From the IMG/VR virus record IMGVR_UViG_3300041407_000207, positions 52,090 through 116,089 of that record: a stretch of DNA of 64,000 nucleotides; one strand, 5' to 3'. The notes below the pieces were generated by a model that worked only from the letters and a program-made list of their open reading frames with translations, did not search any database and was not told the DNA's origin. The position numbers and the translations under genes are program-made. Shown here one piece after another: positions 3,470-64,000 of the stretch. The DNA is from a virus. Lineage: Duplodnaviria > Heunggongvirae > Uroviricota > Caudoviricetes. How positions within the stretch are numbered: the stretch's first letter is position 1; each line of letters starts with the position of its first letter.

Positions 3470-4522
3470 CTACTTCTCCGACCCATCCAAATCTTTCAGC
3501 TTCCTCTGAAGACGAGTCGAACCCGGAACCATTCGTTTGCCTTTGCGAGATTGGCGCCCCGATACCTGCGGGCGCTGCGGAAAAGGGAGGAAAGAGTCCT
3601 CCTCAGTTCCGCTACACGGAAAAGGGAAACCAAACTGATTCAGCACCTCCGTATCGTCAGCGCTCAAACCTACAGATTCCAAAGCCATCGAGCCATTATT
3701 TCCGCGAAAGCTTTCGTTGGCTACTACCCGACCTCCGGGCGTTGTAGTGGTACTTCTGTTAGCACCACCCCCAGTGGTCCCGGCCCCACTCGTATTCTGG
3801 GAATACAGAGGACGGGTGTTGTACGTCGGGGCTACATACTGCTGCTTTTTTACCTGTGCCAACCATTCGGCGGGCACCTCCGTGGTTTCATAGGTTTCGA
3901 AAATCAACTCCGGAGGAAGTGGATTGATCTTCATATTGCCAGGCAGGTTGAATCGGAAAACCTTGTCGCAGGTAGTGCTCAGCTTGCCGATTACGCCAGA
4001 AACGTAGCAGTTGCCACGGTCGTCGCTGTCATCGGTACCGCTGAAGAATGCACCCATATCGTTGTGACTATGGATGTCCAGGACGATTACGTCTTCCGAG
4101 GTCAGGAACCCAGCCCAGTTGTAGTTAACCGCACCCGCCGAAACAGTCTGCTCAGGGATTCGAACATGGTAGCCCTGGGTAGGGTTCCAGATTACGAAAG
4201 CCATAGCTTCGAGCTTGGCGCCTTTGTGTTCGATCATTACCTGCTTGAAGAATTGCTCGATCTGGTGCAGGAACTTGATAGGGATCTTGCCCGCAGGAAA
4301 GAACGAATTGGTGTCCTGCTTGCAGTCCATCAGCTCAACTTCTTTCGGAGGAGTCGGGCAGGGAACTGTAACCGAACGACCGTGAGTCAAGTTGGTACGA
4401 CGGAAACAGCCGTTACCGCTGATGATGTAGATTTCTGCGAAGTTTTCGGAGATGGCCTCGTCGAGGTCAGTCTTCGTATCAACTACGCAAGAGAAGTACG
4501 GGAGAATAATTCGTTTGGTCAT
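3470..4522 (-). CDS. JAB/MPN (JAMM) metalloprotease domain protein, 350 aa, with a low-complexity G/T-rich C-terminal tail
   Basis: Exact JAMM motif H151-S-H153-x7-S161-x2-D164 (LDIHSHNDMGAFFSGTDDSDD). Upstream Glu (IPEQ). AAGGA ribosome-binding site. Confidence 0.8.
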   Translation of the reverse strand: MTKRIILPYFSCVVDTKTDLDEAISENFAEIYIISGNGCFRRTNLTHGRSVTVPCPTPPKEVELMDCKQDTNSFFPAGKIPIKFLHQIEQFFKQVMIEHKGAKLEAMAFVIWNPTQGYHVRIPEQTVSAGAVNYNWAGFLTSEDVIVLDIHSHNDMGAFFSGTDDSDDRGNCYVSGVIGKLSTTCDKVFRFNLPGNMKINPLPPELIFETYETTEVPAEWLAQVKKQQYVAPTYNTRPLYSQNTSGAGTTGGGANRSTTTTPGGRVVANESFRGNNGSMALESVGLSADDTEVLNQFGFPFPCSGTEEDSFLPFPQRPQVSGRQSRKGKRMVPGSTRLQRKLKDLDGSEK

Positions 4523-5315: not shown

Positions 5316-5778
5316 TTGCCTGGATAAACACAGGAGCCGTGTTTACGCTGCGAGTAAGAATCCGAGTATCGATAATTCCGTTCCCAGAACGAGCACGGCT
5401 TGAACCATTACCCACTACTCGTTCATGATTGGTGCGATACTGAGTAGTAGCGGCCTCGAGAGCCCCAATCTTCAGTATCATTCCTTCCAAGTATTCCCGG
5501 GTTAATTCGTCGGGAAGAGTATTGAAACTTTCACCGAGGCCAGGAGGAAACACTTCGTGACTTCCGGAGATAGTCCCTTCGTTCCAGTAATTCTCGCAGG
5601 AGAATTCGACGCCCATGGCTTCATGAACTTTTCGAATGTAATCGATCATGTTCTGAAACCCTTCTGAAGAAGGGGCATTCGATTTACACTCAGCAAACAA
5701 CATCTCGCAAGCTTCACCAAAAGTGAGGCCTGCAAAACGATCTACGGGTTCTTCAATTACGACCTGGGCTGCGTCCAT
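5284..5778 (-). CDS. hypothetical protein, 164 aa
   Basis: Overlapping start/stop with its neighbours (operon packing). Acidic C-terminus. Confidence 0.45.
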   Translation of the reverse strand: MDAAQVVIEEPVDRFAGLTFGEACEMLFAECKSNAPSSEGFQNMIDYIRKVHEAMGVEFSCENYWNEGTISGSHEVFPPGLGESFNTLPDELTREYLEGMILKIGALEAATTQYRTNHERVVGNGSSRARSGNGIIDTRILTRSVNTAPVFIQASGNDDEDDFI

Positions 5779-16196: not shown

Positions 16197-18623
16197 ATGG
16201 GTTTCGATTTAACTGGTAACCAGAATCTTGGATCTATCGCATCAAGTCCACGGACAGATGTGATGTTCCAGGAATTCAGCTTGTACATCGAAGGTGTACA
16301 GGTCCCATTCATGGCTATCAACATACAGTCAAGCCTTGGCTCATTACCCCGCATGAATATCCAAGTCCCATCTCAAACTGGACTTATGGAGATCTGCAGG
16401 TATTACGAGCCTAAGGTGCATGTATTCTACAAAGATCCTGTGACTCAGGAGGACTGCCTGTTCTTCTCTGGAAATATCGTATCTACCACCTACTATAAAT
16501 CCACCCAATCTCCTGGACAAAAGTACATAAGTTTTAACTGTGAGCACCGCTATGCAAAACTAGACATGGTTACCATGGATTATTCCGGGTACGCCAGTGA
16601 TAGTAATGCCAGCGTGACAAACACCAACGAAGGTGAGGCGGCAGTAAAAACAAACGTTTTCAACTCCCTACAATCCATAGGCATGGCACTCACGGGGATC
16701 GATCCTCTGAAAGTCGGGGGCAGTGACGAAGTAAATATCGTAAACCTAAAAGACAAAACGAGAGTTCCCCAGTATGACTCGGTACCAAAGTACCTAGAGG
16801 ATCTGAAATACCGATTCACCGGATTTCCTGGCGTACCTCTGAACATGTGGAATCAACTGAAAGCCCAGGCTTACCAAAATCCAATGATGTACGAGGGAAT
16901 GACCCGTATGTACATTCCGATGGTGGAGCAGGGAACGCAGTTGTTCCGAAGAATCGGTGGACATTTTCCGGTAGAACAACAAATCAATGATTCCAAATGT
17001 GATCCTTGTACTTCAGAGTCTACCGGCGACCATTCTCTAGAGACTGATCCTAGGTTGATTCCTCCTGCCCACAAGACCCTTATGCAGTCTGCCGTCCAAG
17101 CAGATATCTCTACGCAAGTAATTTATACCGTAGGGCAATTCTCAGGAGAGTTGACTTCGTATCTACAGATTCTTCAGAATTTCATGATGTCTGTAGAATA
17201 CGACATGGTGTTTTTGAATGCTCCTGCGGAAGTTCCAAAAGATCCTCGAACCGCAGAAGCCGGAGTAGATACCTCGGCGATAGACGTAATCGTTAAGCCG
17301 CAGATGCCACATTACTACTCACCTGCGTGTAACGTAGTTCTCCCGCACATGATCGTCTCCCTGAATATCAACCAAGACGAACAATCGGTACCTACTCGAA
17401 TTACTGCTGTAAACGATAACGTACCTCAGAGTTCTGGACAATTTGGAGTTAACTACCGAGCCCCGCAATCCGTTCTAGAAGCCATTGCGAAAGGTATCGC
17501 TGAACTAAATGGCGATTCCGAGCACTACGCGTCTCTAGCCCGGACCACTTCGTCTTCTCAATTCAAAATTGGTAAGTACGAACAAGGTCGTGGTATTCGC
17601 CACCAGAGAATTCAACTTCCTAAGTGGCTGGCTATTCTTGCAGAAAGCATGCAGCAGGAATCTCCTAGCTCAAGTGAAACTCGTCCTGCCGATACAACCC
17701 CAGAAGGTATTCAGGTTGAGAAGTTTAGAAAAGCATGGCAGTACCGGTACGATCAGGACGAAAAGAAAAAACAACTGAATCCGTGGGATCAGTCTTCGGA
17801 GATAAACAGTTATCAAAGAATGTTGTTCGCTGCGGCCAACTATAAATTCACGACCGAGACTGCTAAAGCTAGAACGGGTAACTGCACTTTGATTTTCAAC
17901 CCGTACATTGTCCCAGGCTACCCGATGGACATCATCGACCCTACTCCTACAGAACCTAGCTTCCATGCGTTCTGCGTAGACGTCTCTCATACCATCACCT
18001 CCAGAAGTCTTCAGACAAGCGTATCTTTTGTTTCTGCAATGAGCTATCAAGAGCTTGGAAACTACGAACAGCAGTATACGCACCCCTGGCTTCAGTCAGT
18101 CACGGACACTCTTTCAGAAGAAACTGATGAGACCGGGAAAACTATCTATAAAGCAACCATCGTAAATAACACGGTTGCCAGAGACACTGCTTCCAAGTTC
18201 TACCTATCTACCCTAGGTGTCGGTGCAGCAGCTCCAGAGTTCCTGTACGACTTTTCAACCGGTACTCCATACCCACATACCAGATTGAATGGATCACCAA
18301 CTACGCTAAGCGAAGGGAGCACCACAGCCCACGTATCTGGTGAAGGGAACCTAGGCCTAGTATTTAGACCTGTTGAAACTAAAGCTCAGTACGAGGAGAG
18401 GTTCGGAGTTAAATTCATTGATATGTCTGCTGACAACTACGGCCCTATCGTATTCTCGTATGAAGAACCTATTCTTGAAGAATCAAGATTGATGGAGCCT
18501 GGAGAAAGCATGTTTTTGGATTACTCTGACGATCCTGCACCTTCACGAGATGAGATTGGGACTATCCCAACTCCAGTGGTAGCTTCAGACGACGATGGCT
18601 CCTCAGGAGAGGTAATTGCATAA
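16197..18623 (+). CDS. virion structural protein, 808 aa
   Basis: Operon-coupled long ORF. Confidence 0.5.
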   Translation: MGFDLTGNQNLGSIASSPRTDVMFQEFSLYIEGVQVPFMAINIQSSLGSLPRMNIQVPSQTGLMEICRYYEPKVHVFYKDPVTQEDCLFFSGNIVSTTYYKSTQSPGQKYISFNCEHRYAKLDMVTMDYSGYASDSNASVTNTNEGEAAVKTNVFNSLQSIGMALTGIDPLKVGGSDEVNIVNLKDKTRVPQYDSVPKYLEDLKYRFTGFPGVPLNMWNQLKAQAYQNPMMYEGMTRMYIPMVEQGTQLFRRIGGHFPVEQQINDSKCDPCTSESTGDHSLETDPRLIPPAHKTLMQSAVQADISTQVIYTVGQFSGELTSYLQILQNFMMSVEYDMVFLNAPAEVPKDPRTAEAGVDTSAIDVIVKPQMPHYYSPACNVVLPHMIVSLNINQDEQSVPTRITAVNDNVPQSSGQFGVNYRAPQSVLEAIAKGIAELNGDSEHYASLARTTSSSQFKIGKYEQGRGIRHQRIQLPKWLAILAESMQQESPSSSETRPADTTPEGIQVEKFRKAWQYRYDQDEKKKQLNPWDQSSEINSYQRMLFAAANYKFTTETAKARTGNCTLIFNPYIVPGYPMDIIDPTPTEPSFHAFCVDVSHTITSRSLQTSVSFVSAMSYQELGNYEQQYTHPWLQSVTDTLSEETDETGKTIYKATIVNNTVARDTASKFYLSTLGVGAAAPEFLYDFSTGTPYPHTRLNGSPTTLSEGSTTAHVSGEGNLGLVFRPVETKAQYEERFGVKFIDMSADNYGPIVFSYEEPILEESRLMEPGESMFLDYSDDPAPSRDEIGTIPTPVVASDDDGSSGEVIA

Positions 18624-54070: not shown

Positions 54071-55819
54071 TCACGCCGCCATAGGAAGAGATTCCGTCAG
54101 GTTTGTACGCAGCGATGTCATCGTCGCTTCCGAGAGGACTTGACTGTTACGCAGCACACAGTTCAAATCCCCGTTGTAGCCGACCGGCTTACCTTCGACG
54201 AGTTCATACTCGTTGTCTTGATCGAGTTCAAGAGACAACCAGCCTTTCGCAGACTTTTTGCCAGGGTCGGTCTTCGGCGCTTTGTAGACGTCGATCTTCA
54301 TGTTGCCTACTTCGCCATAGGTGAGCTTCATTGCGAAGCCCAACGAATCTCGAGTCAGGTACTGGAGACTGTAGCTGCCTACGCCTACCACGATGTTTTC
54401 CGCAGAGAAGCCCATTTCCATCAAACGTTGCAGAATTGCTTCGAAACGCTGGATGGTGATGGAGTCGCCGTAGATCATGCGGATGTGTGGGTCCAGGACT
54501 TTGAAACCCTTGGAGTTCACAGTGCCGCCGAATACGTTCCACAGATGTTGGACAGTACCGGTCTCTTCTACCGTGGGAGTGGTAGGTTCGAACTGAGTTA
54601 CTGTTTTGCCGTCCATGTAGTAGAACTGTCTGTCTTTGCGGTTCCATTCGATGGAGACGGTGTAGCGATACACTTGACCTTTCCAACGAGCCAGGCCAGA
54701 AACTTCGCTTTCGCCATGCTGGCCGTGTTCAGTTTCGTCTTGGACTTTTTCAGTAACGTAGTCCAGTACCCAACCGCTAGCGTGTTTCTCAGTCTCGGCT
54801 TCATCTCCGATTTCAAAGATTTCAGCGGTTCCGCAGATCACTTCGATAGGGACGCCAGTATCCGGACGAACTACGAATGGGCCCCCTTCACGAGCCATGA
54901 TCTTGTCTTTGAGACGAGGCAGGGCGTATTCCAGCATGCCGTAATAGTCGTAGCTGTCCATAACGAAGCTGATGGGGCCGACGTTGTCCAGGTAGTCAGA
55001 TAGGAAGGCAATTTCTGCTTCCAGCAGTGAACAGCCACGAACAGCTGCGATCATCTGAATGTTGAGGGTGGTTAGAGAGTGCTCGGTGGCCATGATCGAA
55101 CCGAAGTCCGCCTTGGTTGCACCGTACTCATGCATTGCAGCCAAGCAGCCAGGGATGTTATCCGAACCACTGAACGCAGCCAGGAAAGGAGCACCAGTTT
55201 TGTAGCCAGCAGTCATCCCGGTAAGTCCCCGGAGACTGAAGTCGTGACACTGGTACTTAACGTAGCCATTGTCGTCTGCAGTCAGTGCTGCGTACTTCTC
55301 AGCAACGATGCGGTATTCACGAGCAGCAGTGGCTACGGTACTTGGATACCACAGCTCGTTACTGAAGTGATCCTCCATGTAGCTTGCAAGCCACGCAAAG
55401 TCGTCATGCGTGTTGGTCACCAGCATGATCGGGGTGTTTGCTTTTACTACTCGGCCTTCTTCTACTGCATGGACTTCGATAGGCAAATAGCCAAGAGCGT
55501 GCAGATCCGAAAGACGAGTGAGGTCTGCGTTCGGAATGGTCGCCTCGATCAATGGCCGAATCACTTCTTCAACTTCGTCCCACGAGTCTTCGAAGAACAA
55601 GTTCCAAGCATGGTTGATAGCGCACATCCCCTGGAGAATGCCCGCTGCGACGATCTTACCGTCGTACATCGAGCTGCCTTGGAAGTGCTTGGTATTTCGA
55701 GGAGTAAAGTTACCTTGACCCTTCGTGTAGCCTTTTGGGTACAGACCTGGGTGACAGAACTTGTAAGCGTCACAGAGGATGGCTGCGTACAGTTTTGCTG
55801 GGGGGGTACTCATTCGCAT
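54071..55819 (-). CDS. nicotinamide phosphoribosyltransferase-family enzyme (Nampt/NadV or the NARP1 Namat variant), 582 aa
   Basis: MDSYDYYG and VVRPDTGVP match Nampt VSDSYDIY and IIRPDSGNP. IRMIYGDSITIQRF...VGVGSYSLQYLTRD matches LRVIQGDGVD...FGSGGALLQKLTRD. C-terminal KAPKTDPGKKSAKGWLSL matches KDPVADPNKRSKKGRLSL. Confidence 0.85.
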   Translation of the reverse strand: MRMSTPPAKLYAAILCDAYKFCHPGLYPKGYTKGQGNFTPRNTKHFQGSSMYDGKIVAAGILQGMCAINHAWNLFFEDSWDEVEEVIRPLIEATIPNADLTRLSDLHALGYLPIEVHAVEEGRVVKANTPIMLVTNTHDDFAWLASYMEDHFSNELWYPSTVATAAREYRIVAEKYAALTADDNGYVKYQCHDFSLRGLTGMTAGYKTGAPFLAAFSGSDNIPGCLAAMHEYGATKADFGSIMATEHSLTTLNIQMIAAVRGCSLLEAEIAFLSDYLDNVGPISFVMDSYDYYGMLEYALPRLKDKIMAREGGPFVVRPDTGVPIEVICGTAEIFEIGDEAETEKHASGWVLDYVTEKVQDETEHGQHGESEVSGLARWKGQVYRYTVSIEWNRKDRQFYYMDGKTVTQFEPTTPTVEETGTVQHLWNVFGGTVNSKGFKVLDPHIRMIYGDSITIQRFEAILQRLMEMGFSAENIVVGVGSYSLQYLTRDSLGFAMKLTYGEVGNMKIDVYKAPKTDPGKKSAKGWLSLELDQDNEYELVEGKPVGYNGDLNCVLRNSQVLSEATMTSLRTNLTESLPMAA

Positions 55820-55830
55820 TGGGCTACTCC

Positions 55831-56670
55831 TTAGTAGTTTTCACGGGTTACGTTGAGGATACGGAGGTTACCTTCGCCTTGCAGCTCACGATGGTAACTG
55901 TTGGTGGAGATTACTTCGTCGTAGATACCGGTAACGACGGCAGTCCCCTTGGAGAACAGACCGTGGGTCACTGCCAAGCTTACCGAAGCAGCGCCCTGTT
56001 CTTTCAGGGAGTGATACAGCGGCACGAATGTACCGCAGCCATCACCGATATCATCCAGGACCAGCAGAGTACGACCTTCGACAGTATCGTTGACCCGGGT
56101 TCCGGAGATAGAACCAGTTGCGAGGTCACGAACCTTGGTGCAGTGAATTACGCCAGCCGCACCTACTTTTCTGGCGAACGATTCCGCCTTCTTAGCAGCA
56201 CCACCATCTGGAGCTGCGATATAGACTTCACGCCACGAGGTATAGATATCACGGAAGATATCGAACTGGGTCACAACTTCCAGGCGGTTGAACAGAGCCG
56301 ATGTAACCTCGCTGTGAGGGTCCAGGATCTTCACGCTGGCAAAGTTACAGGCGTTGATATGCTTAGCCACCACGGCGATGCTGAGAGGCTCACCTGGGTT
56401 GCAAACACGGTCTTGTCGGGCGTATGGCATGTACGGGATGAAGGCAGAGACGTCTGCACGAGGATAGACTCGACGAACAGCGTCCTCGATAAACAGCAGG
56501 TTCAAGAGATCGCCCTGAGTAGTGAGTCGAGCTACAATTTCGACCGACTCTACTTTCTCTGGATAGAGACCTCCGTCCTGGATTTGAGGAACTACTTCAC
56601 CACCTGGAAAGTGAATGTAGGTGATTTCTTCGGTGCAGTTGCCTTTGCGCAGATAAATAGTGCCTTTCAT
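55831..56670 (-). CDS. ribose-phosphate pyrophosphokinase-family enzyme (Prs, or the ADPR-pyrophosphorylating Adps variant), 279 aa
   Basis: IPYMPYARQDR (Prs IPYFGYARQDR). PRPP-binding loop LVLDDIGDGCGT (Prs LVDDMIDTGGT). Confidence 0.75.
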   Translation of the reverse strand: MKGTIYLRKGNCTEEITYIHFPGGEVVPQIQDGGLYPEKVESVEIVARLTTQGDLLNLLFIEDAVRRVYPRADVSAFIPYMPYARQDRVCNPGEPLSIAVVAKHINACNFASVKILDPHSEVTSALFNRLEVVTQFDIFRDIYTSWREVYIAAPDGGAAKKAESFARKVGAAGVIHCTKVRDLATGSISGTRVNDTVEGRTLLVLDDIGDGCGTFVPLYHSLKEQGAASVSLAVTHGLFSKGTAVVTGIYDEVISTNSYHRELQGEGNLRILNVTRENY

Positions 56671-58309: not shown

Positions 58310-59782
58310 TTGAACCAGTACCTAACCAAGATCGCCAAACAGTCTGAAAAGAAGAACAAGGACTCAAGCCGTCATCACGACAAAGTCTTGGAGATGCTGG
58401 ATAAAGGAAATGGCGCAGTTGCTCAACATTCCATGGGCTCGGGTAAAACCCTGCTGGCTTTGAAAGCGGCTGCCCGTGCTCAAAAACGCAATCCGCACAA
58501 AGATGTGATTATCTCGGCCCCGGCTTCTGTGATTAAACAGTTCCCGGAAGAAGCTAAGAAATTCGGTATCAAGCTAAATGATAAACATACCAAGTACTTC
58601 TCTCACGAAGAGCTGGTGAACAAAGCCGAGTCTCTGGCTAAGAATAAAAACTCTCTCCTCATCATTGATGAAGGCCATCGTCTTCGCAACAAAGATACCG
58701 CTAAGAATCGTGCCCACGCCTTAGTCCGTGGTTCCTCTGACAAAGCACTGATCCTCAGCGGGACCAGCATGTACAATAAACCACACGACATCGCTGCTTT
58801 AGTGAACCTAGCAACTGGCAAGGAAACTCTTCCAGATTCAGAAGCCAAGTTCAGAGAGAAGTTCATAGCTACTGAAAAAGTAAGTCCAGGCTTTATGAGG
58901 ACTCTGTTCGGAGCCAAACCTGGTGAGAAGGAACGTCTTCGTAACGGCAATGAGCTGAAGAAACTCCTTAAGGGCACAGTTCATAACTATGATGCCCAGA
59001 CTGATATGCCTGAAGAGTTTGCAACTACCACGGAAACTATTCACAAGACCCCTATGTCTAAGGAGCAGGATAGGTACTACCGTTTTGCAGAGAATAATAT
59101 CCCTTGGCCTATCCGGGCAAAGATACGTGCAGGCCTACCACTATCTAAAAAAGAGAATGCTTCCCTGAATGCGTTCTCCTCAGGTGTCCGCCAAATTTCC
59201 AACAGCTATGCTTCTTATACTATGGACCCCTCGAAAGTAGAGGCATCTCCTAAGTTCCAAGAGATGATCAATCACTCAGACGAACTTCGTAAGAAGCAGA
59301 AGAAAGGATACAGGAACGTAGTCTACTCTAACTACCTCGGCAGTGGTCTGGCCCACTACAGTAAACAGTTGAAAGACAAAGGCATTTCTCACGGAGTCTA
59401 CACCGGTGAGCTGAGCAAGACCGAGAAGAAAAAGATGGTTGACGAGTACAACGATGGGGAATTCGACACTCTGCTCCTATCCAGCTCTGGGGCAGAAGGT
59501 TTGAATTTGAAAGGCGTTACTCACATGCAAGTCATGGAGCCGCACTGGAATGACTCAAAGATTCGTCAAGTAATCGCCCGTGCGGTTCGTAGAGGAAGCC
59601 ATGCTCACCTAGAAAAAGCAGATCGTCATGTACAGGTAGACCACTACCACTCCGAGCTTCCAAAAGGATTTTTGGGCAAGGCCAAAGGTAAGTCCATCGA
59701 CGAATACCTCTACTCTATGAGCCAGGATAAAGAAGTTCTGAAGAAAGATATAAACAAACTGATTGACGCAAACTCTAAATAA
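58310..59782 (+). CDS. SF2 (SNF2/DEAD-like) helicase, 490 aa
   Basis: TTG start. Motif I MGSGKT. Motif II IIDEGHRL. Motif III LSGT. C-terminal SSSGAEGLNL and QVIARAVRRGS. Confidence 0.6.
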   Translation: MNQYLTKIAKQSEKKNKDSSRHHDKVLEMLDKGNGAVAQHSMGSGKTLLALKAAARAQKRNPHKDVIISAPASVIKQFPEEAKKFGIKLNDKHTKYFSHEELVNKAESLAKNKNSLLIIDEGHRLRNKDTAKNRAHALVRGSSDKALILSGTSMYNKPHDIAALVNLATGKETLPDSEAKFREKFIATEKVSPGFMRTLFGAKPGEKERLRNGNELKKLLKGTVHNYDAQTDMPEEFATTTETIHKTPMSKEQDRYYRFAENNIPWPIRAKIRAGLPLSKKENASLNAFSSGVRQISNSYASYTMDPSKVEASPKFQEMINHSDELRKKQKKGYRNVVYSNYLGSGLAHYSKQLKDKGISHGVYTGELSKTEKKKMVDEYNDGEFDTLLLSSSGAEGLNLKGVTHMQVMEPHWNDSKIRQVIARAVRRGSHAHLEKADRHVQVDHYHSELPKGFLGKAKGKSIDEYLYSMSQDKEVLKKDINKLIDANSK

Positions 59783-63244: not shown

Positions 63245-63538
63245 TCAACTGTAATTGACGTAGAACTTATAGTCAACGCTTATAACGAAATCCTTGTCAC
63301 CCGTAATGAAGTTATGAAGTACTGGTACGTGAGCTTTGATCAAGTTCATCCAGCGAACATTGAACTCAATAGATTCCAGAGGGAGTAGCTCTATACTTCT
63401 GTGGAAGTACGGATCTATCGACTCTTTAAGCTTGGCTACTGCGTCTTCATCAGTTACTTGATAAGAGTTAGTGAAGATTACCTTAAGAGTATGACCTTCG
63501 CCAGTAGCCATGTAGTCATATACTAAAACTGATTTCAT
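63245..63538 (-). CDS. hypothetical protein, 97 aa
   Basis: ORF. Confidence 0.4.
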   Translation of the reverse strand: MKSVLVYDYMATGEGHTLKVIFTNSYQVTDEDAVAKLKESIDPYFHRSIELLPLESIEFNVRWMNLIKAHVPVLHNFITGDKDFVISVDYKFYVNYS

Positions 63539-63750
63539 TACGCGTTACCTGTACGGCACGCATCTACTTTCAAACCTTCTACTACACCAATTGATTGGCC
63601 GAAGGTGAGATTGCCACAAGTATTGCCGCGAGCGTAGACCACCGTGATTACAGAGGTAGGATTGTACCCTGCAAGAGTAACGACCTGCTCGTAGGAGATC
63701 TTGTCTTCTTCAGAGAGTTCGTGCTCTTTGCCATTGATCGAAATCTTCAT
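63538..63750 (-). CDS. hypothetical small protein, 70 aa (possible beta-grasp-like)
   Basis: MKISINGKEHEL...VTLAGYNP pattern faintly ThiS-like. ATGA coupling to the downstream gene. Weak. Confidence 0.35.
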   Translation of the reverse strand: MKISINGKEHELSEEDKISYEQVVTLAGYNPTSVITVVYARGNTCGNLTFGQSIGVVEGLKVDACRTGNA

Positions 63751-63793
63751 GTGAACCTCTTCTATCTAAAGTAGTTGAGGGCCGAAGCCCTCG

Positions 63794-63862
63794 AACAAAC
63801 AGGGCTCGAACCTGCAACTCACGACAATTCGTGCATTCTACCGATTGAAATATTGTTCTTCC
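63794..63862 (-). ncRNA. tRNA-like RNA with a truncated anticodon arm, own promoter and a 3' UUCG hairpin
   Basis: D-loop AATCGGTAGAAT. T-arm GCAGG-TTCGAGC-CCTGT. 6-bp acceptor GAACAA/TTGTTC with a 1-72 mismatch. The anticodon region folds only as CACGA-ATTG-TCGTG (4-nt loop), so there is no canonical anticodon loop. Followed by GAGGGC-TTCG-GCCCTC (63777-63792). Confidence 0.4.
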
Positions 63863-63872
63863 TACAAAGTAC

Positions 63873-63880
63873 TTATACCA
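63873..63880 (-). promoter_or_regulatory. extended -10 box TGGTATAAGTAC driving the tRNA-like RNA
   Basis: Motif family. Predicted transcription start about 63865, at the 5' end of the tRNA-like element. Confidence 0.45.
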
Positions 63881-64000
63881 GCTACTTACCTGAGATACGA
63901 AAACCAACCCACCAGAGATCGAGTCGTACATACCAAAGGGTCTTTTCCAGACCTCCTCGTAATCCAATCTTTCGATTCTGTTCGTCCATGGGGATCTTGG

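What the first reader, a model, noticed from the sequence alone, without database searches (positions are those of the whole stretch)
63777..63880. Stand-alone tRNA-like RNA with a truncated anticodon arm, driven by its own promoter and capped by a UUCG hairpin
Directly at the predicted start site of a TGGTATAAG promoter lies a 69-nt element with a good D-loop, a good T-arm (GCAGG-TTCGAGC-CCTGT) and a 6-bp acceptor helix. The anticodon region can only form a 5-bp stem with a 4-nt loop (CACGA-ATTG-TCGTG). There is a 1-72 mismatch.

It is followed by GAGGGC-UUCG-GCCCUC.

It therefore cannot decode. It may act as a tRNA mimic (processing signal, primer, decoy for tRNA-targeting defence nucleases such as PrrC, RloC or retron effectors) or be a decaying pseudo-tRNA. 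Together with the 41240-42500 locus, it suggests this phage uses tRNA mimicry beyond its five bona fide tRNAs.
Basis: seen in the sequence. Interest (0 to 1): 0.5.

Follow-up and report, generated by a model that had tools for sequence, protein, structure and literature searches.

The report
Non-decoding tRNA-shaped phage small RNA
This phage carries a gene for a roughly 100-nt RNA that keeps the folded body of a tRNA but has lost the anticodon loop and the CCA end; ten related phages preserve its shape through matching mutations, so it is a working tRNA look-alike with an unknown partner, not a dead tRNA.

Summary
Rfam's tRNA model matches 63859..63791 at 43.1 bits. The anticodon arm is CACGA-AUUG-UCGUG, a 4-nt loop. 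A1 and G72 are mismatched, and no CCA is encoded. ARAGORN does not call it.

It lies 12 nt after a CTGGTATAAG motif. That motif occurs 9 times on this strand, ahead of minus-strand genes. GAGGGC-UUCG-GCCCUC follows the body directly.

The whole RNA (about 63866..63771) is therefore a closed three-way structure.

I recovered ten distinct homologues from metagenomic relatives.
- None has a 7-nt anticodon loop or an encoded CCA.
- 21 of 30 pairs show changes on both sides, against 2-9 in register-shifted controls.
- The invariant bases are those of the tRNA tertiary core.
- The acceptor stem is the least conserved helix.
- One relative carries the element as a separate gene with nothing downstream.

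It is therefore a selected, non-decoding, tRNA-derived small RNA, not a decaying pseudogene. The most likely action is as a tRNA-body mimic; its partner is unknown. It is not a YrlA-type Y RNA, although the phage encodes Ro and Y-like RNAs 21 kb away.

The parts
63872..63881 (-). Promoter-like motif CTGGTATAAG (extended -10: TGn + TATAAG)
   Evidence: It is one of 9 TGGTATAA sites on the minus strand, against 1 on the plus strand, all ahead of minus-strand genes. A TATAAG -10 motif directly precedes all ten homologues: nine have TGGTATAAG and L025 has AGGTATAAG. The simple sigma-70 scan does not call it because there is no -35 match.
63862..63865 (-). 5' strand of the closing helix (GUAG) in the short leader
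   Evidence: It pairs with 63774..63771. It covaries across relatives: GUAGG/CCUAC, GUAGGA/UCCUAC, UAGAAG/UUUCUA, AGGAGAA/UUCUCCU, GAAG/CUUC. RNAalifold predicts it independently.
63791..63859 (-). tRNA-like body. Acceptor GAACAA/UUGUUC at 63858-63853 / 63798-63793. D arm at 63850-63835. T arm at 63815-63799.
   Evidence: Rfam tRNA model, 43.1 bits. ARAGORN is negative. Invariant across 10 homologues: U8, A9, A14, G18, G19, U20, G53, U54, U55, C56, G57, A58, C61.
63820..63833 (-). Truncated anticodon arm CACGA-AUUG-UCGUG (5 bp + 4-nt loop, 14 nt instead of 17)
   Evidence: Model alignment. Homologues have CACC-GUUC-GGUG, CUUGAA-GAAC-UUCAAG, CACCA-ACUU-UGGUG, CAGAA-UAAUA-UUCUG and CUAG-UUAACU-CUAG. 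The stem covaries and the loop never has 7 nt.
63777..63792 (-). GC hairpin GAGGGC-UUCG-GCCCUC, abutting the acceptor 3' strand
   Evidence: Sequence. Present in all homologues with a UUCG, GAAA or GUAA loop. 5 of its 6 pairs show changes on both sides and 100% of cells are paired. No U-run follows it, and the terminator scan does not call it.
63771..63774 (-). 3' strand of the closing helix (CUAC)
   Evidence: Pairs with 63865..63862.
63766..63770 (-). Conserved UUUAG trailer directly after the closing helix. It may mark the 3' end or a processing site (inferred).
   Evidence: UUU is invariant in all ten homologues. This includes L025, where no gene follows.
63538..63750 (-). First downstream ORF (70 aa) of the same transcription unit. 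Context only, not part of the RNA.
   Evidence: ORF list. What follows the element varies among relatives: this ORF, a 97-aa ORF, tRNA-Met directly, or nothing.

Best explanation
This is a gene for a stable, non-decoding, tRNA-shaped small RNA of about 95-100 nt. It descends from a phage tRNA gene.

How it is built:
- Transcription starts a few nucleotides after the phage's TGGTATAAG-type promoter.
- The RNA folds into a tRNA L-shape with an intact D-loop/T-loop elbow and tertiary core.
- Both working ends of a tRNA are capped. A short hairpin with a 4-nt loop replaces the anticodon loop.
- The acceptor end has no CCA. It runs into a GC hairpin, and a helix between the 5' leader and the 3' trailer clamps it.

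How it most likely works: only the parts that selection keeps, the elbow and core, can act. The RNA would then serve as a nuclease-resistant tRNA-body mimic that occupies or recruits a factor that reads tRNA shape. Candidate partners, in my order of preference, are:
1. a host tRNA-targeting defence nuclease or toxin;
2. RNase P or tRNA-modifying enzymes;
3. the phage Ro/PNPase machinery.

Shown: the structure, its conservation, the loss of the decoding features, its promoter association and its stand-alone occurrence.
Inferred: expression, the RNA ends, action in trans, and the partner.
For: - tRNA model match at 43.1 bits, with a 4-nt anticodon loop and no ARAGORN call.
- No encoded CCA, whereas all five genuine tRNAs of the window encode it.
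- Ten distinct homologues from relatives whose helicase is 68-100% identical.
- My own covariance model separates the family (46-129 bits) from every genuine tRNA (at most 33.5 bits).
- Covariation on the model-made alignment: 93.8% of cells paired and 21 of 30 pairs changed on both sides. Register-shifted controls give 36-46% and 2-9 pairs, and 0 of 500 shuffles reach the observed values. The hand-registered alignment gives 96.7% and 24 of 35.
- RNAalifold independently recovers the closing, D, anticodon-arm, T and GC-hairpin helices.
- The invariant bases are exactly the tRNA tertiary-core positions.
- The Levitt pair covaries: A15-U48 in the window and G15-C48 in L011.
- The proposed fold is at -28.3 kcal/mol, within 0.9 kcal/mol of the minimum-free-energy fold. 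The two folds share four helices.
- In L025 the element is its own unit: an intrinsic terminator, then a promoter, then the element, then only a convergent gene.
- In L026 the same promoter type and the same downstream sequence flank a genuine tRNA-Asn with CCA. This points to a tRNA origin.
- The neighbourhood is rich in counter-defence genes. Tad3 lies directly upstream in L019 and L021, and NAMPT with a PRPP synthase lies nearby.
Against: - There are no expression data. The RNA ends and the RNA's stability are inferred.
- In nine of ten homologues, genes or tRNA-Met follow in the same orientation, so a purely cis role as a leader cannot be excluded.
- Other promoters of this class are also followed by 5' stem-loops. 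The closing helix may therefore be a general transcript feature and not specific to this RNA.
- The ten sequences represent only about six lineages, and both alignments were fitted to the structure.
- No partner is identified, and no known defence system is known to be blocked by such an RNA.
- Among close relatives the element is no more conserved than the flanking ORFs.
Confidence: 0.5

Rival explanations
1. It is a cis-acting 5' module of the tRNA-Met operon. On this view the tRNA-like fold, together with the closing helix, is a protective or processing cap at the 5' end of the polycistronic transcript. It would block 5'-end-dependent decay, or provide an RNase P or RNase E entry site. It would not be a trans-acting RNA.
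For: - The element always lies within about 15 nt of the promoter motif.
- In nine of ten relatives it heads a unit that leads to tRNA-Met. In L018 only 19 nt separate the two.
- Other promoters of the same class are followed by simple 5'-terminal hairpins, and one (7061) ends in the same UCUCUUUAG design.
- No terminator follows the element.
Against: - In L025 nothing lies downstream on that strand, yet every helix is kept, with new compensatory pairs.
- A simple hairpin serves the other transcripts, so simple protection does not explain an invariant tRNA core.
- The acceptor stem needed for canonical RNase P cleavage erodes to 4 bp or about 1 bp in L018, L021 and L019.
Confidence: 0.25
2. 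It is an additional Y RNA for the phage's Ro60 protein. It would have the Deinococcus Yrn1 layout: a 5'/3' terminal stem, then a D arm, a short 'anticodon' arm and a T arm, in tRNA order.
For: - The phage encodes Ro60 (39140..40645, minus strand; 33-35% identity to actinophage 'Ro-like' proteins).
- YrlA-like RNAs lie beside the Ro gene.
- The relative L018/L028 carries both Ro and the element on one contig.
- Chen et al. 2014 (PMC4201824) describe Yrn1 with the arms in this order and a 5-bp stem with a 6-nt loop. They expect further undetected Y RNAs.
- The termini resemble those of the YrlA-like RNA at 41922..41810: GUAGG...CCUACUUGUA.
Against: - It lies 23 kb from the Ro gene, whereas Y RNAs lie within about 4 kb.
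- It has no GNCGAAN0-1G or GGUCCGA motif. It also lacks the 3' ACUUGU that ends every Y-like module of this phage.
- No Rfam YrlA or Y_RNA match at E up to 10.
- My family model scores the Y-RNA loci at only 12-15 bits.
- GUAGG is simply the consensus start of transcripts from this promoter type.
- L022/L023 have Ro but no element in the 21 kb held.
- The Ro clusters listed show no contig of the size of L011 or L021. This is indirect.
Confidence: 0.12
3. It is a decaying pseudo-tRNA: a redundant tRNA copy that lost 3 nt of its anticodon loop and is drifting without function.
For: - A genuine tRNA-Asn occupies the same slot in L026.
- A second tRNA-Asn exists upstream in the window's clade.
- The acceptor stem is eroding in some lineages.
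Against: - 21-24 pairs show changes on both sides that keep the pairing.
- The core bases are invariant.
- A capped short anticodon arm is kept with five or more unrelated stem sequences.
- The extra GC hairpin and the closing helix are gained features, and they are conserved.
- Single-nucleotide insertions fall in loops only.
Confidence: 0.04
4. It is a real decoding tRNA whose fold was misread, or part of the 85-aa ORF 63967..63710.
For: - The match exceeds the Rfam gathering score.
- An ORF spans the element.
Against: - No predictor gives a 7-nt loop.
- CCA is absent.
- The +1 insertions in L003 and L009 would shift the ORF's reading frame.
Confidence: 0.01

Closest known systems
Bacterial and phage Y RNAs with a tRNA-like domain (YrlA, Rfam RF02553; D. 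radiodurans Yrn1)
   Same: It is a non-decoding RNA with genuine D and T arms and a tRNA core. Its 5' and 3' ends are paired. It is encoded by a genome that has Ro60. The arm order (D, short anticodon-like arm, T) matches Yrn1 as described in PMC4201824.
   Different: It lacks the Ro-binding motif and does not lie beside the Ro gene. It is not permuted as YrlA is. It has an extra GC hairpin 3' of the body. The YrlA model does not match it, and my family model does not match the phage's Y-like RNAs.
mascRNA / MEN-beta tRNA-like small RNAs of vertebrates (from my own knowledge)
   Same: It has a tRNA cloverleaf with a reduced anticodon loop, does not decode, and is derived from a tRNA-like fold.
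   Different: Those RNAs are cut out of the 3' end of a long RNA by RNase P and RNase Z and then receive CCA. This element has its own promoter, a clamped acceptor end and no CCA. The organisms are unrelated.
Genuine phage tRNA genes (the five in this window)
   Same: It lies on the same strand and in the same cluster, has the same kind of D and T arms, and passes the Rfam tRNA gathering score.
   Different: It has a 4-nt instead of a 7-nt anticodon loop. It has no CCA, a 1-72 mismatch, and a 3' hairpin with a closing helix. ARAGORN does not call it.
Engineered 'tRNA scaffolds' for stable RNA expression (Ponchon and Dardel; from my own knowledge, see PMC3753655)
   Same: It is a tRNA body whose anticodon arm is replaced by another hairpin, which gives a nuclease-resistant RNA.
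   Different: Those scaffolds are artificial, keep a normal acceptor end, and are processed like tRNA.

Membership tests
Decoding tRNA | Cloverleaf with D and T arms and tertiary-core bases | tested here: met
   RF00005 at 43.1 bits (gathering score 29). U8, A14, G18, G19, U54, U55, C56 and A58 are present.
Decoding tRNA | 7-nt anticodon loop on a 5-bp stem | tested here: not met
   The loop has 4 nt (AUUG). The ten homologues have 4-6 nt.
Decoding tRNA | 7-bp acceptor stem ending in a free NCCA | tested here: not met
   The stem has 6 bp with an A1-G72 mismatch. No CCA is encoded, although all five true tRNAs here encode it. The 3' strand runs into a hairpin.
Decoding tRNA | Called by a tRNA gene finder | tested here: not met
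   ARAGORN is negative at default settings. With relaxed settings it gives only a nonsensical fold.
YrlA-type Y RNA | Encoded within about 4 kb of Ro60 on the same strand (PMC4201824) | tested here: not met
   It is on the same strand but 23 kb from the Ro gene at 39140..40645.
YrlA-type Y RNA | GNCGAAN0-1G (or GGUCCGA) motif near the 5' end | tested here: not met
   The motif is absent from the leader UGUAGGAAGAACAA and from all homologues.
YrlA-type Y RNA | Permuted order: T arm, closed acceptor-like hairpin, D arm | tested here: not met
   The arms are in normal tRNA order. There is no RF02553 match at E up to 10.
Y RNA in general | Terminal stem formed by the 5' and 3' ends | tested here: met
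   The closing helix covaries, with 97.5-100% of cells paired.
Y RNA in general | Bound by Ro60 | not testable with these tools
   This needs immunoprecipitation of the phage Ro.
Decaying pseudogene | Substitutions that ignore base pairing | tested here: not met
   93.8% of cells are paired, against 36-46% in shifted registers. 21 of 30 pairs are changed on both sides.
Intrinsic terminator (for the GC hairpin) | GC stem followed at once by a U-run | tested here: not met
   AACUAC follows the stem. The terminator scan does not call it.
RNase P-processed tRNA-like RNA (mascRNA type) | Cleavage at position +1 and CCA addition | not testable with these tools
   A 7-bp acceptor stem is not conserved (about 1-7 bp), which argues against this as the shared function.

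The most novel reading that the evidence does not exclude
The RNA is a trans-acting, non-cleavable tRNA-body decoy. It keeps the elbow and core that a host tRNA-targeting immune nuclease or toxin recognises. It offers neither an anticodon loop nor a free CCA end to attack, so it would titrate that effector. This would make it the first RNA-only counter-defence that works by tRNA mimicry, encoded in an island with Tad3 and NAD-salvage genes. A variant of this reading is a new, Yrn1-like class of Y RNA serving a phage Ro.
Probability: 0.2. Interest if true: 0.85.

Novelty: new variant of a known kind. Interest (0 to 1): 0.6.

Why it matters
- Phage tRNA clusters are now read as counter-measures to tRNA-cleaving immunity. 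A conserved RNA that keeps the tRNA body but deletes both functional ends does not fit the 'spare tRNA' explanation.
- It points to a second use of tRNA shape by phages.
- It gives a compact, well-defined family: ten members, six covarying helices and a working covariance model. This family can be searched for, deleted and pulled down.
- tRNA finders either skip such genes or label them 'pseudo', so similar RNAs may be widely overlooked in phage genomes.

Tried and rejected
- No relative was found by DNA search in INPHARED phages in near or distant mode. IMG/VR gave nothing with an exact scan, two pattern scans and one protein scan.
- The single JGI metagenome pattern scan gave only chance matches and one normal tRNA.
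- Salmonella phage Arash, the nearest named phage by helicase (38% identity), is not syntenic.
- The long tRNA-like genes of Eneladusvirus and Mimasvirus lie at a partly syntenic spot. They are a different thing: they have perfect 7-bp acceptor stems, 54-62-nt inserts, and CCA in GAP32.
- I tried to name the parent tRNA. The L026 tRNA-Asn is the best match to three family members, but only by 2-3 positions over tRNA-Arg. I treat this as a lead only.
- ARAGORN with lowered thresholds produced no sensible tRNA.
- The overlapping 85-aa ORF is rejected because of frameshifting insertions in close relatives.
- The GC hairpin is rejected as a terminator because no U-run follows it.
- The test of co-occurrence with Ro stayed inconclusive, for lack of look-ups.
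- An RNase E-type motif (RN|WUU) at CUAC|UUUAG fits the window but not L019 or L021, so I make no claim from it.

Full report
**1. What is in the sequence**

The feature lies on the minus strand. Rfam's tRNA model matches 63859..63791 over its full length at 43.1 bits, against a gathering score of 29. E is 3e-7 in a 2.5-kb search and 8e-6 in a whole-window search. The default-filter run missed it.

The alignment shows a normal D arm (UUUC-AAUCGGUA-GAAU) and T arm (GCAGG-UUCGAGC-CCUGU). The anticodon stem CACGA/UCGUG closes only four bases, AUUG. A1 and G72 are mismatched.

ARAGORN finds the five real tRNAs (Gly, Arg, Ser, Ser, Met) but not this element. With lowered thresholds it returns only a nonsensical 87-nt fold.

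All five real tRNAs encode their 3' CCA; this element does not. Its acceptor 3' strand runs straight into GAGGGC-UUCG-GCCCUC (63792..63777). No U-run follows that hairpin, and the terminator scan does not call it.

**2. The promoter**

CTGGTATAAG (63881..63872) ends 12 nt before A1. TGGTATAA occurs nine times on the minus strand and once on the plus strand of the window. All nine minus-strand copies lie ahead of minus-strand genes, in a shared context: yTGGTATAA(G/C)...TG(T/C)RRG.

The same motif precedes genes in related contigs. Many of those transcripts would begin with a 5' stem-loop. I take it to be this phage group's promoter (extended -10 type). This is an inference from recurrence and position.

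**3.

The leader GUAG (63865..63862) pairs with CUAC (63774..63771), directly after the GC hairpin. The RNA is then a closed three-way junction made of the closing helix, the tRNA-like body and the GC hairpin. An invariant UUU follows.

This fold has an energy of -28.3 kcal/mol. The minimum-free-energy fold is at -29.2 kcal/mol and shares four of its helices.

**4. Relatives**

The annotated phage collection, IMG/VR and the JGI contigs held nothing close.

Exact-protein look-ups of the neighbouring 70-aa ORF gave eight contigs, with four sequence variants of the element. Look-ups of homologues of the 97-aa ORF and of the SNF2 helicase (58310..59782) gave more distant relatives: L011, L018, L019, L021, L025 and L027.

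That makes ten distinct versions. Each follows a TATAAG -10 motif (TGGTATAAG in nine, AGGTATAAG in L025). Each is followed by a GC hairpin with a UUCG, GAAA or GUAA loop, then by a trailer complementary to its own leader.

The anticodon-arm equivalents are:
- CACGA-AUUG-UCGUG
- CACC-GUUC-GGUG
- CUUGAA-GAAC-UUCAAG
- CACCA-ACUU-UGGUG
- CAGAA-UAAUA-UUCUG
- CUAG-UUAACU-CUAG

None has seven loop bases, and none of the ten RNAs encodes CCA.

**5. Is the structure selected?**

- On a hand-registered alignment, 96.7% of cells pair and 24 of 35 pairs show changes on both sides. Registers slid by 1-3 columns give 41-45% and 2-7 pairs.
- A covariance model built from six close members scores the ten members at 46-129 bits. 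The best genuine tRNA in 285 kb of related sequence scores 33.5 bits. There is no second copy in the window.
- On the model-made alignment, 93.8% of cells pair and 21 of 30 pairs change on both sides. Controls give 36-46% and 2-9 pairs, and 0 of 500 shuffles reach the observed values.
- RNAalifold, predicting on its own, recovers the closing, D, anticodon-arm, T and GC-hairpin helices, but not the acceptor stem.
- The invariant bases are U8, A9, A14, G18, G19, U20, G53, U54, U55, C56, G57, A58 and C61, that is, the tRNA tertiary core. UUU after the closing helix is also invariant.
- The Levitt pair covaries: A15-U48 here and G15-C48 in L011.

Caveats: there are about six independent lineages, and both alignments lean towards the structure.

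**6. What varies**

The acceptor stem has 6-7 bp in the window, L011, L027 and L025. It has 4 bp in L018 and L021, and about 1 bp in L019, where the closing helix is longest at 7 bp.

The content downstream also varies:
- a 70-aa ORF (window, L019);
- the 97-aa ORF (L011);
- other small ORFs (L021);
- tRNA-Met after 19 nt (L018);
- nothing (L025).

In L025 the element sits between an intrinsic terminator with a promoter on one side and the 3' end of the convergent helicase gene on the other. It still keeps every helix, with new compensatory pairs.

In L026 the same promoter type and the same downstream sequence (UUUAAUAGAGGUUCAUAUG) flank a genuine tRNA-Asn(GUU) with CCA. Its body is the best match, by a small margin, to three family members.

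**7. Interpretation**

The element is a domesticated tRNA gene. Selection has kept the L-shaped body and removed or capped both functional ends. This excludes decoding and makes neutral decay very unlikely.

The acceptor end is clamped and erodes in some lineages. Aminoacylation, CCA addition and canonical RNase P cleavage are therefore unlikely to be the shared function.

What remains under selection is the elbow and core, held in a compact RNA whose ends are paired. The most economical mechanism is a stable tRNA-body mimic that engages something that reads tRNA shape.

The L025 arrangement favours action in trans. The promoter-proximal position in the other nine keeps a cis role (protection or processing of the 5' end of the tRNA-Met operon) as the main rival.

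The surroundings are an accessory and counter-defence region:
- Tad3 lies directly upstream of the element in L019 and L021.
- NAMPT and a PRPP synthase lie nearby.
- The tRNA cluster itself is part of this region.

Some defences are reported to cut tRNA outside the anticodon loop; one example is Septu, in the variable loop of tRNA-Tyr (abstract of PMC13096335). A decoy role is therefore plausible, but it is untested.

**8. Relation to Ro and Y RNAs**

ORF 39140..40645 (minus strand) is a Ro60/TROVE protein. Upstream of it lies a 1.25-kb non-coding stretch with these features:
- two sub-threshold YrlA matches (42166..42305 and 41810..41922);
- a further T arm;
- a GAUCCGAAUGG motif.

Chen et al. 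2014 (PMC4201824) define YrlA by three features: closeness to Ro, a GNCGAAN0-1G motif, and a permuted T-acceptor-D order. The present RNA meets none of these. It does share the paired termini, and it shares the D / short-arm / T order with D. radiodurans Yrn1.

The family model scores the Y-RNA loci at only 12-15 bits. L018's phage has both Ro and the element on one contig. L022/L023 have Ro but no element in the 21 kb held. I keep the Y-RNA reading as a minority rival.

**9. Novelty**

tRNA-like non-coding RNAs are a known kind; YrlA/Yrn1, mascRNA and the tmRNA tRNA-like domain are examples. I did not find this architecture described in Rfam or in six literature searches. The architecture combines:
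- normal arm order;
- a capped short anticodon arm;
- no CCA;
- a 3' GC hairpin;
- a covarying 5'/3' clamp;
- its own promoter.

I class it as a new variant of a known kind. Its function is unknown but testable.

Noticed in passing
window 39140..42500 (minus strand): A Ro60/TROVE gene (39140..40645) lies next to a roughly 1.25-kb non-coding cluster of Y-RNA-like modules. The cluster has sub-threshold YrlA matches at 42166..42305 (39.5 bits) and 41810..41922 (31.2 bits), a further T arm at 41748..41732, and GAUCCGAAUGG at 42463..42453. Each module ends in AACUUGU. Relative L028 has the same layout.
   Followed up: partly
window minus strand: 63880, 57416, 51403, 42512, 41189, 39147, 7061, 5267, 3160: There is a recurrent promoter-like motif yTGGTATAA(G/C)...TG(T/C)RRG, with 9 copies on the minus strand and 1 on the plus strand. 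Several of the transcripts would start with a 5' stem-loop. The copy at 39147 is followed at once by a hairpin and a U-run.
   Followed up: partly
window 7061 and 42512 (minus strand): Two promoters share an almost identical 24-nt stretch (TCTGGTATAACAATAGTGCGAGAG). The 7061 leader folds as GAGAGA-GAACUA-UCUCUU followed by UAG. This is the same 'purine leader / pyrimidine complement / UUUAG' design as the element, without the tRNA-like insert.
   Followed up: no
window 63538..63750 (minus strand): The 70-aa ORF just downstream gives a weak Multiubiquitin match (PF14452, 22.2 bits, below the 24.5 cut-off). It has no PHROG family.
   Followed up: no
window 54071..56670 (minus strand); L019 14474..15034; L021 16367..16930: Counter-defence content surrounds the tRNA cluster. 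NAMPT and a PRPP-synthase-like gene lie in the window. In two relatives a Tad3 (type I Thoeris inhibitor, E about 1e-31) lies directly upstream of the element's promoter.
   Followed up: partly
L001 3490..3603, 4313..4438, 5323..5443; L002 5564..5690: The jumbo phages Yersinia fHe-Yen9-04 and Cronobacter GAP32 carry tRNA-like genes of 114-127 nt. These have perfect acceptor stems and 54-62-nt inserts in place of the anticodon loop. Some of the inserts share GAAACC..GGAUUC..GAAUCCCGCAGCAAC.AUAACUC. They are annotated as tRNA-Pseudo, Undet or Lys, and their nature is unclear.
   Followed up: partly
L022 15882..15961 and 16545..16619; L023 16430..16509: Two relatives carry the same long-variable-arm tRNA body with anticodon AAA in one and ACA in the other. 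One of them also has a tRNA with a CUA (amber-reading) anticodon.
   Followed up: no
L026 11430..11525 (minus strand): In a relative whose helicase is 68% identical, a genuine tRNA-Asn(GUU) with CCA fills the slot behind the same promoter type and ahead of the same UUUAAUAGAGGUUCAUAUG sequence. This suggests what the element evolved from.
   Followed up: partly
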